DNA from: Escherichia coli
GTDB taxonomy: Bacteria; Pseudomonadota; Gammaproteobacteria; Enterobacterales; Enterobacteriaceae
DNA: 27,357 bases
Assembly: GCF_003334355.1 (NCBI RefSeq)
Contig: NZ_QOWP01000042.1
Direction: 5' to 3' (one strand)
The position numbers were made by a program. Shown here piece after piece: positions 3,001 through 6,000 of the stretch. Each line of letters starts with the position of its first letter. The first letter of the stretch is position 1.

Positions 3001-6000
3001 GCGAATATCAATCTGTCGGTTATTCCCACGCTGACCACTGGTGGAGTTACCGGTCAGGTTAACGCCTGGCATGGTACGGATGATCTCCGACACATCGCGG
3101 GCAACCGGGTTTTTGCGGATTTCATCTGCGGTGATGGTCGAAACGCCAGGCGCCTGTAAGTTCTGCTCGGCGGCGGTAACGACAATAGTATCGTCATGTG
3201 AAACAGGAGTATCGGTCGGCTCTTGTGCCTGCGCTACCCCATAAATCCCCAGATTGACCAACAAGGCCAGGGAATGAATCTTCTTGTTCATTGTTTTATT
3301 CCTGCATTTTTGCCACGAATTGCAACTGTCGGGCATGGTCGTCATCAACACGACGCATCCCGCTACCGCGAAAACCTTTGATCCTGAAAGACACGCAGTG
3401 CAGTTGGTTAATTAATGTCCGCGCTTCCCACGGCGCGCCATTACGCTATTGCAAATGCAAATAGTTATCAATAATATTATCAATATATTTCTGCAATCAA
3501 TGAAAAATTGCACAGTAAACATGGGGTTATGGTGTGACGGCGTTAAAAGTAGGAAGTGAGAGCTGGTGGCAGTCGAAACATGGCCCGGAATGGCAGCGTC
3601 TGAATGACGAAATGTTTGAGGTCACTTTCTGGTGGCGTGATCCCCAAGGTTCTGAAGAATACTCGACGATAAAGCGCGTATGGGTCTACATCACTGGTGT
3701 GACCGATCACCATCAGAACAGCCAGCCCCAGTCGATGCAGCGAATTGCAGGCACTAACGTCTGGCAGTGGAAGACACAACTCAATGCCAACTGGCGCGGC
3801 AGCTACTGCTTTATTCCCACCGAACGCGATGACATTTTTTCTGTACCATCCCCCGATCGCCTCGAATTGCGCGAAGGCTGGCGAAAACTATTACCCCAGG
3901 CGATAGCCGATCCGCTGAACCTACAAAGCTGGAAAGGCGGGCGAGGGCACGCTGTTTCTGCACTCGAAATGCCGCAAGCGCCTCTGCAACCGGGATGGGA
4001 TTGTCCGCAAGCGCCAGAAATACCTGCCAAAGAAATTATCTGGAAAAGTGAACGGTTGAAAAAGTCACGGCGTGTATGGATTTTTACCACCGGCGATGCA
4101 ACAGCAGAAGAACGCCCGCTGGCAGTTTTGCTCGATGGCGAATTTTGGGCGCAAAGTATGCCCGTCTGGCCAGTGCTGACTTCGCTGACCCATCGTCAGC
4201 AACTTCCTCCCGCCGTGTATGTGTTGATCGACGCTATCGACACCACGCACCGCGCCCACGAACTGCCGTGTAATGCGGATTTCTGGCTCGCAGTACAGCA
4301 AGAGTTATTACCCCTGGTGAAAGCTATTGCCCCTTTTAGCGATCGTGCCGATCGCACCGTGGTTGCCGGGCAGAGTTTTGGTGGGCTTTCCGCGCTGTAT
4401 GCCGGACTGCACTGGCCTGAACGCTTTGGCTGTGTATTAAGCCAGTCAGGATCGTACTGGTGGCCGCATCGGGGCGGGCAGCAAGAGGGCGTGTTACTTG
4501 AAAAGCTAAAAGCTGGTGAAGTTAGCGCCGAAGGTCTGCGCATTGTGCTGGAAGCGGGTATTCGCGAGCCGATGATCATGCGGGCCAATCAGGCGCTGTA
4601 TGCGCAATTACACCCCATAAAAGAATCCATTTTCTGGCGTCAGGTTGACGGCGGACATGATGCGCTTTGTTGGCGCGGTGGCTTGATGCAGGGGCTAATC
4701 GACCTCTGGCAACCACTTTTCCATGACAGGAGTTGAATATGGCATTCAGTAATCCCTTCGATGATCCGCAGGGAGCGTTTTACATATTGCGCAATGCGCA
4801 GGGGCAATTCAGTCTGTGGCCGCAACAATGCGTCTTACCGGCAGGCTGGGACATTGTGTGTCAGCCGCAGTCACAGGCGTCCTGCCAGCAGTGGCTGGAA
4901 GCCCACTGGCGTACTCTGACACCGACGAATTTTACCCAGTTGCAGGAGGCACAATGAGCCAGCATTTACCTTTGGTCGCCGCACAGCCCGGCATCTGGAT
5001 GGCAGAAAAACTGTCAGAATTACCCTCCGCCTGGAGCGTGGCGCATTACGTTGAGTTAACCGGAGAGGTTGATTCGCCATTACTGGCCCGCGCGGTGGTT
5101 GCCGGACTAGCGCAAGCAGATACGCTGCGGATGCGTTTTACGGAAGATAACGGCGAAGTCTGGCAGTGGGTCGATGATGCGCTGACGTTCGAACTGCCAG
5201 AAATTATCGACCTGCGAACCAACATTGATCCGCACGGTACTGCGCAGGCATTAATGCAGGCCGATTTGCAGCAAGATCTGCGCGTCGATAGCGGTAAACC
5301 ACTGGTCTTTCATCAGCTCATTCAGGTGGCAGATAACCGCTGGTACTGGTATCAGCGTTATCACCATTTGCTGGTCGATGGCTTTAGTTTCCCGGCCATT
5401 ACCCGCCAGATCGCCAATATTTACTGCACATGGCTGCGTGGCGAACCAACGCCTGCTTCGCCGTTTACGCCTTTCGCTGATGTAGTGGAAGAGTACCAGC
5501 AATACCGCGAAAGCGAAGCCTGGCAGCGTGATGCGGCATTCTGGGCGGAACAGCGTCGTCAACTGCCACCGCCCGCGTCACTTTCTCCGGCACCTTTACC
5601 GGGGCGCAGCGCCTCGGCAGATATTCTGCGCCTGAAACTGGAATTTACCGACGGGGAATTCCGCCAGCTGGCTATGCAACTTTCAGGTGTGCAGCGTACC
5701 GATTTAGCCCTTGCGCTGGCGGCTTTGTGGCTGGGGCGATTGTGCAACCGCATGGACTACGCTGCCGGATTTATCTTTATGCGTCGACTGGGCTCGGCGG
5801 CGTTGACGGCTACCGGACCCGTGCTCAACGTTTTGCCGTTGGGTATTCATATTGCGGCGCAAGAAACGCTGCCGGAACTGGCAACCCGACTGGCGGCTCA
5901 ACTGAAAAAAATGCGTCGTCATCAACGTTACGATGCCGAACAAATTGTCCGTGACAGCGGGCGAGCGGCAGGTGATGAACCGCTGTTTGGTCCGGTACTC

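What the first reader, a model, noticed from the sequence alone, without database searches (positions are those of the whole stretch)
3451..3490. Fur-box-like repeats at three bidirectional promoters (fepA/fes, fepD/entS, fepB/entC)
Fur-box-like AT-rich hexamer repeats occur at 3451..3490, 12999..13027 and 15445..15470, each between divergently transcribed operons. This fits the established iron/Fur control of the whole regulon. The fepB/entC site (aaatgataatcattatt) is closest to consensus; the fepA/fes site is more degenerate.
Basis: partly seen in the sequence, partly recalled or inferred. Interest (0 to 1): 0.25.

Follow-up and report, generated by a model that had tools for sequence, protein, structure and literature searches.

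The report
Known Fur operators of enterobactin genes
These AT-rich repeats are the long-known binding sites where the iron-sensing repressor Fur shuts off the E. coli enterobactin (ent/fep) genes, so the finding is correct but ordinary.

Summary
The window is the E. coli entD-fepA-fes-entF-fepE-fepCGD-entS-fepB-entCEBAH cluster. All three claimed sites are real and lie inside published Fur DNase I footprints and ChIP-exo peaks.

I built a 19-bp palindromic PWM de novo from 18 K-12 Fur promoters outside this cluster. Its six hits of 10 bits or more in the 27-kb window all fall in known operators:
- entC: 15451-15469, 26.8 bits
- fepD/entS: 13002-13020, 18.0 bits
- fepA/fes: 3454-3472, 17.1 bits

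Local dinucleotide shuffles give p of 0.004 or less for each. The six other intergenic gaps score 2.8 bits or less. In about 80 Enterobacteriaceae species every one of the three intergenic regions that could be delimited keeps a site of 16.6 bits or more, and the operators are the conserved islands of those regions.

By the classical 19-mer, fepD/entS is closest.

Verdict: confirmed, already known, low interest.

One side observation: the window carries the ancestral short fepB leader. K-12 and about half of E. coli genomes have a 186-bp insertion whose end supplies the strongest predicted part of K-12's footprinted fepB Fur box.

The parts
3454..3484 (.). fepA/fes Fur operator: three overlapping 19-mers in 6-bp register (3454, 3460, 3466; 17.1, 6.1 and 9.1 bits). 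It lies inside the published DNase I footprint, which maps to 3442-3489.
   Evidence: PWM scan; local shuffle p=0.002; footprint coordinates from Chen 2007 Table 3; identical to K-12; W3110 ChIP-exo peak maps to 3466-3478; 97% mean cross-species identity against 46% for the rest of the intergenic region.
3449..3477 (+). Inferred fes promoter: -35 TTGCAA 3449-3454, 17-bp spacer, -10 TAATAT 3472-3477. The Fur cluster fills the spacer, the -10 and the start region.
   Evidence: Read from the sequence. The hexamer columns are about 99-100% conserved (the intervals scored were 1 bp to the right). This is an inference: the transcription start data (Hunt 1994) could not be read.
3471..3500 (-). Promoter-like site in the fepA direction: -35 TTGATT 3500..3495, -10 TATTAT 3476..3471. 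The -10 lies inside the Fur cluster.
   Evidence: Consensus scan. The -10 is 99% conserved but the -35 only 43%, so the assignment is uncertain.
12996..13026 (.). fepD/entS Fur operator: 19-mers at 12996, 13002 and 13008 (4.3, 18.0 and 16.7 bits) in 6-bp register. It also holds the window's best classical 19-mer match, 12999-13017 (3 mismatches). The published footprint maps to 12968-13036.
   Evidence: (p=0.003); footprint; identical to K-12; MG1655 and W3110 ChIP-exo peaks map to 13009-13039; 89% conserved against 66% for the rest.
13013..13046 (.). Inferred overlapping promoters. entS: -35 TTATCG 13013-13018 (inside the Fur cluster), -10 TATGTT 13037-13042. fepD on the minus strand: extended -10 TGCTAACAT 13046..13038, which places the Fur cluster just downstream of the fepD start.
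   Evidence: Sequence plus 96-99% cross-species conservation. Chen 2007 states that this Fur cluster lies between promoter and translational start. This is an inference: Christoffersen 2001 could not be read.
It corresponds to the K-12 fepB footprint, of which only the promoter-proximal 20 bp (15338-15357) are shared with this window.
   Evidence: (p=0.004); footprint. The CFT073 ChIP-exo fepB peak maps to 15348-15360 on identical sequence. 88% conserved across species.
15346..15374 (-). Inferred fepB promoter: -35 TTGCAT 15374..15369, 17-bp spacer, -10 GAAAAT 15351..15346. The -10 and the start region lie in the Fur site. The predicted 5' UTR is about 32 nt in this strain.
   Evidence: Sequence plus 98% conservation of both hexamers. 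Inference.
15406..15434 (+). Inferred entC promoter: -35 TTGACA 15406-15411, 17-bp spacer, -10 TAGGTT 15429-15434.
   Evidence: Sequence plus 100% and 93% conservation. Inference.
15445..15481 (.). entC Fur operator: 19-mers at 15445, 15451 and 15463 (16.2, 26.8 and 9.2 bits), covering the predicted start site and early leader. The published footprint maps to 15442-15490.
   Evidence: 0 of 2000 shuffles; footprint; identical to K-12; ChIP-exo MG1655 P18 maps to 15431-15475 and the CFT073 peak to 15467-15479; 87% conserved.
15337..15338 (.). Junction of the fepB-leader polymorphism. K-12 has 186 extra bp here (L002 15338-15523); the window has the short ancestral form.

Best explanation
These are the Fur operators of the enterobactin regulon. 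When iron is sufficient, Fe2+-Fur dimers bind arrays of overlapping 19-bp (7-1-7) sites spaced 6 bp apart. These arrays overlap or directly abut the core promoter elements, so RNA polymerase is excluded or blocked and six transcription units are repressed: fepA-entD, fes-ybdZ-entF, fepDGC, entS, fepB and entCEBAH. When iron is scarce, Fur releases and the genes are derepressed.

There are four operators in three intergenic regions:
- one shared by fepA and fes (3454-3484)
- one shared by fepD and entS (12996-13026)
- two separate ones for fepB (15330-15354) and entC (15445-15481)

Shown here: the motif matches, their statistical significance, their cross-species conservation, and their coincidence with published footprints and ChIP-exo peaks on identical sequence. 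Inferred: the exact -35/-10 assignments, and therefore whether each promoter is occluded (fes, entS -35, fepB, entC start) or blocked downstream of the start (fepD).
For: Identity. The region is present in 5419 of 5426 complete E. coli genomes. Gene order is entD-fepA/fes...fepD/entS, fepB/entC.

Motif. An independent de novo motif, AATGATAATCATTATCATT (21.3 bits), was learned from 18 non-ent/fep Fur promoters. All six window hits of 10 bits or more fall in the four operators. Local shuffles give p of 0.004 or less for each, and the other six intergenic gaps score 2.8 bits or less.

Published binding. The footprints map to 3442-3489, 12968-13036, about 15327-15357 and 15442-15490. Three of the four operators are identical to K-12.

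In vivo data. ChIP-exo peaks and delta-fur log2 fold changes in MG1655 (fepA 6.6, fes 5.4, entC 6.0, fepD 2.5, entS 2.7, fepB 2.6) place these genes in the core Fur regulon of nine strains. CFT073 has a fepB-entC region identical to the window and shows separate fepB and entC peaks.

Conservation. All 48 fepA-fes regions and all 79 fepD-entS and 79 fepB-entC regions that could be delimited in the 80 fetched loci keep a site of 16.6 bits or more. Hits of 12 bits or more are about 465-fold denser in the three regions than in the rest of the loci (436 in 37,419 positions against 37 in 1,477,769). The operators are 87-97% conserved against 46-66% for the flanking intergenic DNA.

Promoters. The inferred promoter hexamers adjoining the operators are 93-100% conserved.
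Against: Nothing substantive.
- The fepA/fes site is poor by the classical 19-mer (6 mismatches).
- The fepB operator in this strain scores only 12.7 bits, a level that 30% of whole-window Markov surrogates reach somewhere. Its support comes from position, conservation and the CFT073 ChIP-exo peak.
- Exact transcription starts were not available, so occlusion geometry is inferred.
- The strict sigma-70 scan found no more promoter-like sites than in shuffles.
- Chen 2007 notes that the fepD-entS cluster does not overlap a strong predicted promoter.
Confidence: 0.97

Rival explanations
1. The matches are just AT-rich promoter DNA (-10-like hexamers, UP-element-like tracts) that resemble a Fur box by composition, with no specific Fur recognition.
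For: The three intergenic regions are AT-rich (GC 0.31-0.43). Fur-box halves resemble -10 hexamers, and the promoter scan picks up hexamers inside the boxes.
Against: Dinucleotide-preserving shuffles of the same regions reach the observed scores in 0.3% of trials or fewer. Other equally AT-rich intergenic gaps in the window (GC 0.34-0.37) score 2.8 bits or less. Published footprints, ChIP-exo peaks and delta-fur derepression sit on identical sequence.
Confidence: 0.01
2. A single shared Fur operator controls both fepB and entC from one bidirectional promoter.
For: In O157:H7 Sakai, ChIP-exo reports one peak assigned to both fepB and entC. The entC site is by far the strongest (26.8 bits).
Against: Two separate motif clusters lie about 115 bp apart (centres near 15345 and 15460). 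Each overlaps its own conserved -35/-10 pair. K-12 footprinting gave two distinct protected regions. MG1655, W3110, BL21, 042 and CFT073 each show separate fepB and entC ChIP-exo peaks.
Confidence: 0.03
3. The sites are primarily operators for a different regulator (another Fur-family protein such as Zur, or a nucleoid protein such as H-NS that binds AT-rich DNA), with Fur control indirect.
For: AT-rich DNA is a general H-NS substrate. No test for other regulators' motifs was run here.
Against: The motif learned only from Fur-regulated promoters picks out exactly these sites. Fur itself footprints them and is cross-linked to them in vivo. Conservation follows the 7-1-7 half-site pattern rather than general AT-richness.
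Confidence: 0.01

Closest known systems
E. coli K-12 Fur operators at fepA-fes (Hunt, Pettis & McIntosh 1994; Escolar et al. 1998), fepDGC-entS/ybdA (Christoffersen et al. 2001; Lavrrar et al. 2002) and fepB-entC (Brickman, Ozenberger & McIntosh 1990), as tabulated in Chen et al. 2007 (PMC2189734)
   Same: This is the same locus. The fepA/fes and fepD/entS intergenic regions and the entC operator are base-for-base identical to K-12. The footprint coordinates coincide with the claimed intervals.
   Different: Only the fepB operator differs. K-12's footprinted fepB box (TCCATCAATAATGCTTCTCATTTTCATTGTA) takes its distal 11 bp from a 186-bp insertion that this window lacks. K-12's best predicted site there is 20.1 bits, against 7.5 bits for the corresponding 19-mer in the window. 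The shared 12.7-bit site is intact.
Fur operators of E. coli CFT073 and other natural strains mapped by ChIP-exo (Gao et al. 2023, PMC10164565)
   Same: CFT073's fepB-entC intergenic region is 100% identical to the window. It shows separate Fur peaks at the fepB and entC operators, and delta-fur derepression of fepB (log2 4.2) and entC (log2 6.9).
   Different: None detected in the region compared. The other two intergenic regions of CFT073 were not aligned here.
Generic Fur box models: the classical 19-bp GATAATGATAATCATTATC, the hexamer (NATWAT)n model, the 7-1-7 model (Baichoo & Helmann 2002, recalled from memory), and the overlapping-dimer information-theory model (Chen 2007)
   Same: The de novo motif is the 7-1-7 core TGATAATNATTATCA with AT-rich flanks. 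Sites occur as clusters in 6-bp register, as Chen 2007 describes for all footprinted Fur sites.
   Different: Exact NATWAT hexamers are few: 2 forward plus 2 reverse in three operators and none in the fepB operator. 'Hexamer repeats' therefore describes fepA/fes and fepB loosely.

Membership tests
Fur box / Fur operator (Enterobacteriaceae) | Significant match to the Fur recognition motif (19-bp palindrome / 7-1-7 core) | tested here: met
   An independent PWM gives 26.8, 18.0, 17.1 and 12.7 bits for the four operators. Local shuffle p is 0.004 or less. 7-1-7 mismatches are 1, 3 and 3 for entC, fepA/fes and fepD/entS.
Fur box / Fur operator (Enterobacteriaceae) | Clustered overlapping sites in 6-bp register, allowing several Fur dimers to bind | tested here: met
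   Hits at 3454/3460/3466, 12996/13002/13008, 15330/15336 and 15445/15451/15463. Chen 2007 reports the same pattern for these footprints.
Fur box / Fur operator (Enterobacteriaceae) | Position overlapping or abutting the core promoter of an iron-repressed gene | tested here: inconclusive
   Conserved candidate -35/-10 hexamers overlap or adjoin every operator. Mapped transcription starts could not be read, and the strict sigma-70 scan was not enriched over shuffles.
Fur box / Fur operator (Enterobacteriaceae) | Direct Fur binding in vitro or in vivo | tested here: met
   No new experiment was done. Published DNase I footprints and ChIP-exo peaks were mapped onto sequence identical to the window.
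Fur box / Fur operator (Enterobacteriaceae) | Fur- and iron-dependent expression of the flanking genes | tested here: met
   From published RNA-seq. Delta-fur log2 fold changes are 2.5-6.6 for all ent/fep genes in MG1655, and they belong to the core regulon in nine strains. The downstream neighbour cstA changes by only 0.66.
Fur box / Fur operator (Enterobacteriaceae) | Evolutionary conservation of the site relative to surrounding non-coding DNA | tested here: met
   In about 50-65 distinct sequences from 80 species, operators are 87-97% conserved against 46-66% for the rest. Every intergenic region that could be delimited keeps a site of 16.6 bits or more.

The most novel reading that the evidence does not exclude
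The only non-textbook element concerns the fepB operator.

What was seen. The window carries the ancestral, short fepB control region, with a predicted 5' UTR of about 32 nt. K-12 and about half of sequenced E. coli carry a 186-bp palindromic insertion exactly at the distal edge of the fepB Fur box. The end of that insertion (…ATCAATAA) creates the strongest predicted Fur 19-mer of the K-12 fepB operator (20.1 bits, against 7.5 bits in the short allele). It also adds a hairpin of -93 kcal/mol to the leader.

The novel reading. The classic 'fepB Fur box' footprinted in K-12 would then be partly built from inserted repeat DNA, and the two common alleles would differ in Fur affinity and in post-transcriptional control of fepB.

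What argues against a large effect. Published delta-fur fold changes show no obvious allele effect: fepB log2 2.2-5.9 in four long-allele strains (MG1655, W3110, W, KO11FL) against 3.5-4.2 in two short-allele strains (Sakai, CFT073).
Probability: 0.3. Interest if true: 0.3.

Novelty: already known. Interest (0 to 1): 0.07.

Why it matters
It matters little as a discovery. Fur control of the enterobactin cluster through operators in the three divergent control regions has been textbook knowledge since 1990-2002 and has been re-mapped genome-wide several times.

The check is still useful in three ways:
- It validates the annotation. The scan recovers all known operators and nothing spurious.
- It corrects the count to four operators, not three.
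- It shows that the operator that looks most degenerate (fepA/fes) is the most strongly conserved.

The fepB-leader insertion polymorphism is a small lead on how repeat insertions can remodel an operator in natural populations.

Tried and rejected
1. Classical 19-mer search with up to 3 mismatches found only the fepD/entS site. It is too strict to judge the other sites, so I replaced it with a PWM.
2. Primary papers with transcription start data (Hunt 1994, Christoffersen 2001, Escolar 1998 and 1999, Lavrrar & McIntosh 2003) are not in the library. Supplements of Chen 2007 and Beauchene 2015 are not held either. Promoter geometry therefore rests on sequence and conservation.
3. The strict sigma-70 scan gave few hits, no more than in shuffles. 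Two of its predictions (the fepA -35, and the fepD -35/-10 pair at 13087..13058) are poorly conserved (43-57%), so I did not rely on them.
4. I considered that the K-12 186-bp element is a multicopy MITE. Its outer 50 nt occur once per genome; only the GC-rich core recurs. From memory the core resembles box C or RSA repeats, but I did not test this, and Rfam has no match.
5. MG1655 ChIP-exo peaks P12 (window 3302-3335) and P19 (15639-15670) were considered as extra operators. They have no motif (-7.7 and -13.5 bits), so I did not count them.
6. Weak PWM hits elsewhere (8064, 26404, 26303 and 9117; 7-9.4 bits) are at the level expected by chance: surrogates average about 2 hits of 8 bits or more.
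Full report
**Identity of the window.** Bases 3000-16000 match 5419 of 5426 complete E. coli genomes, and several natural isolates at 100%. Annotation of the best hit and of K-12 MG1655 gives the following genes:

| Gene(s) | Window coordinates | Strand |
|---|---|---|
| entD | 256-876 | - |
| fepA | 1051-3291 | - |
| fes | 3534-4736 | + |
| ybdZ, entF, fepE | follow fes | + |
| fepC, fepG | precede fepD | - |
| fepD | 11982-12986 | - |
| entS | 13097-14347 | + |
| fepB | 14351-15307 | - |
| entC | 15496-16671 | + |
| entE, entB, entA, entH, cstA and others | follow entC | various |

The three claimed sites therefore do lie between divergent genes.

**The observation.** The quoted sequences are at the stated coordinates. 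I did not rely on a remembered consensus. I fetched 18 Fur-controlled K-12 promoter segments outside the ent/fep cluster: fhuA, fur, fiu, tonB, cirA, mntH, exbB, bfd, sodA, fecA, fecI, fhuF (two segments), ydiE, nfeF, ryhB, efeU and gpmA. Their positions came from the footprint and scan tables of Chen et al. 2007. I then ran an unseeded palindromic EM on them. It converged on AATGATAATCATTATCATT (21.3 bits), which is the 7-1-7 Fur core.

Scanning the window with this PWM gave six hits of 10 bits or more:

| Position | Bits | Operator |
|---|---|---|
| 15451-15469 | 26.8 | entC |
| 13002-13020 | 18.0 | fepD/entS |
| 3454-3472 | 17.1 | fepA/fes |
| 13008-13026 | 16.7 | fepD/entS |
| 15445-15463 | 16.2 | entC |
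| 15336-15354 | 12.7 | fepB |

Weaker partners sit 6 bp away at 3460, 3466, 12996, 15330 and 15463.

Dinucleotide shuffles of each intergenic region reach the observed maximum in 0.2% (fepA/fes), 0.3% (fepD/entS), 0% (fepB-entC) and 0.4% (fepB half alone) of 2000 trials. The six other intergenic gaps of the window score 2.8 bits or less, although three of them are just as AT-rich. Whole-window Markov surrogates contain a hit of 17 bits or more 2.5% of the time.

**Comparison with published binding data.** Chen et al. 2007 (PMC2189734, Table 3) list DNase I footprints in NC_000913.2 coordinates:

| Operator | K-12 coordinates | Window coordinates |
|---|---|---|
| fepA-fes | 611868-611915 | 3442-3489 |
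| fepD-entS | 621394-621462 | 12968-13036 |
| fepB | 623939-623969 | about 15327-15357 |
| entC | 624054-624102 | 15442-15490 |

The offset was fixed by the gene starts quoted in the same paper and by the K-12 annotation.

The fepA/fes and fepD/entS intergenic regions are identical to K-12, and so is everything from 15338 to entC.

Gao et al. 2023 (PMC10164565, supplementary tables) report ChIP-exo peaks that map as follows:
- W3110: 3466-3478
- W3110 and MG1655: 13009-13039
- MG1655 P18: 15431-15475
- a separate fepB peak in MG1655, W3110, BL21, 042 and CFT073

CFT073's fepB-entC region is 100% identical to the window. Its two peaks map to 15348-15360 and 15467-15479.

In MG1655 the delta-fur log2 fold changes are fepA 6.6, fes 5.4, entF 5.4, entC 6.0, fepD 2.5, entS 2.7 and fepB 2.6. 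The neighbour cstA changes by 0.66. All ent/fep genes belong to the core Fur regulon of nine strains.

**Conservation.** A scan of one genome per species with EntS returned 80 loci from Escherichia, Salmonella, Citrobacter, Enterobacter, Klebsiella, Kluyvera, Kosakonia and other genera. I delimited the three intergenic regions by tblastn with the six flanking proteins.

- Every delimited region has a best PWM hit of 16.6 bits or more. That is 50, 81 and 81 regions including the window and K-12.
- Hits of 12 bits or more number 436 in 37,419 positions of the three regions, against 37 in 1,477,769 positions elsewhere. This is about a 465-fold enrichment.
- In MAFFT alignments the operators are conserved islands: fepA/fes 3454-3484 at 97% against 46% for the rest; fepD/entS 13002-13026 at 89% against 66%; entC 15445-15481 at 87% and fepB 15330-15354 at 88% against 62%.

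**How it most likely works.** Next to each operator there are conserved hexamers that fit sigma-70 promoters:

| Gene | -35 | -10 |
|---|---|---|
| fes | TTGCAA 3449-3454 | TAATAT 3472-3477 |
| entS | TTATCG 13013-13018 | TATGTT 13037-13042 |
| fepD (minus strand) | none assigned | extended -10 TGCTAACAT 13046..13038 |
| fepB (minus strand) | TTGCAT 15374..15369 | GAAAAT 15351..15346 |
| entC | TTGACA 15406-15411 | TAGGTT 15429-15434 |

On this reading:
- Fur fills the spacer, the -10 and the start region of fes.
- It covers the -35 of entS.
- It sits just downstream of the fepD start, consistent with Chen 2007's remark that this cluster lies between promoter and start codon.
- It covers the -10 and start of fepB.
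- It covers the start and early leader of entC.

The predicted fepB and entC starts are about 102 bp apart. This agrees with my recollection of Brickman et al. 1990, which I could not verify here. These promoter assignments are inferences. The papers with mapped starts were not available. The strict consensus scan was uninformative, and its fepA -35 and fepD promoter predictions are poorly conserved.

1. There are four operators. The fepB/entC region has two, about 115 bp apart, each with its own promoter. The cited one is entC's.
2. 'Closest to consensus' depends on the model. By PWM and 7-1-7 it is entC (26.8 bits, 1 mismatch). By the classical 19-mer it is fepD/entS (3 mismatches), ahead of entC and fepB (4 each) and fepA/fes (6, which is at noise level).
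3. The 'degenerate' fepA/fes operator is the best conserved of the four.

**Side observation.** K-12 has 186 bp more than the window between fepB and its operator (L002 15338-15523).

- Frequency: the long allele is in 2726 of 5426 complete E. coli genomes, and the short one is in essentially all the others.
- Ancestry: outgroups (E. albertii, Salmonella, Citrobacter, Enterobacter and others) have intergenic regions of about 183-190 bp, so the short form is ancestral.
- Related form: E. whittamii has a 100-bp version with the same outer arms.
- Copy number: the outer 50 nt occur once per genome in the 2755 genomes that carry them, and only the GC-rich core is repeated.
- Effect on the operator: the junction lies inside the K-12 fepB footprint. 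K-12's best fepB 19-mer, ATCAATAATGCTTCTCATT (20.1 bits), takes its first 8 nt from the insertion. The window has GAAGTTAATGCTTCTCATT (7.5 bits). The shared 12.7-bit site is intact.
- Effect on the leader: the insertion adds a hairpin of -93 kcal/mol (z = -5.0) to the K-12 leader.
- Expression: published delta-fur ratios show no obvious allele effect. Short-allele strains (Sakai, CFT073) give fepB log2 3.5-4.2; long-allele strains (MG1655, W3110, W, KO11FL) give 2.2-5.9.

This is a modest lead and not part of the finding.

**Verdict.** The feature is already known. Interest is low.

Noticed in passing
window 15337/15338 (K-12 locus L002 15338-15523): There is a 186-bp insertion/deletion polymorphism in the fepB leader. 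The window has the short form; K-12 and 2726 of 5426 E. coli genomes have the long form. The short form is ancestral (outgroup intergenic regions are about 183-190 bp). The junction lies inside K-12's footprinted fepB Fur box, and the insertion's end supplies 8 nt of K-12's best predicted site there (20.1 vs 7.5 bits). The inserted RNA folds into a hairpin of -93 kcal/mol.
   Followed up: yes
L021 (Escherichia whittamii) fepB-entC intergenic region; L048, L061, L068, L073, L080, L087, L089 (Kluyvera and relatives, 232-233 bp); L074, L077, L079 (Pseudocitrobacter, 247 bp); L082 (Klebsiella grimontii, 311 bp): The fepB-entC spacer repeatedly acquires small insertions in different genera. E. whittamii has a 100-bp version of the K-12 element at the same junction. 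K. grimontii has an insertion between the two promoters that looks ERIC/IRU-like (judged from memory, not tested). Both Fur operators are retained in these loci.
   Followed up: partly
window 3419-3439: A GC-rich palindrome (CCGCGCTTCCCACGGCGCGCC) lies immediately beside the fepA/fes operator, on the fepA side. It is 74% conserved across species, far more than the remaining fepA leader. It may be a leader hairpin or another regulatory determinant.
   Followed up: no
window 935-976 (- strand): Rfam match to ES036 (CssrF) sRNA at 40.5 bits (gathering score 37.6), in the spacer between fepA and entD. The same match occurs in K-12.
   Followed up: no
window 1-148: The left end of the window is the end of an IS186 copy. 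It is identical to K-12's IS186B at the same position upstream of entD.
   Followed up: partly
window 1-27357 compared with K-12 (L002): Similarity to K-12 is mosaic. There are only 5 differences in the first 5 kb (entD to fes), then about 1-4% divergence from entF onward. This suggests a recombination boundary near 5 kb.
   Followed up: partly
window 3302-3335 and 15639-15670: Two MG1655 ChIP-exo peaks from Gao et al. 2023 (P12 in the fepA leader, P19 inside entC) map here but have no Fur motif (best PWM -7.7 and -13.5 bits). They are possibly shoulder or indirect signals.
   Followed up: partly
window 8930-8948: A near-perfect palindrome, AGTGAATGTTGCATTCATT, lies in the AT-rich entF-fepE spacer. 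It is a weak PWM hit (2.8 bits), so it is not a Fur box. fepE is nevertheless derepressed in delta-fur (log2 3.3), presumably by read-through from entF.
   Followed up: no
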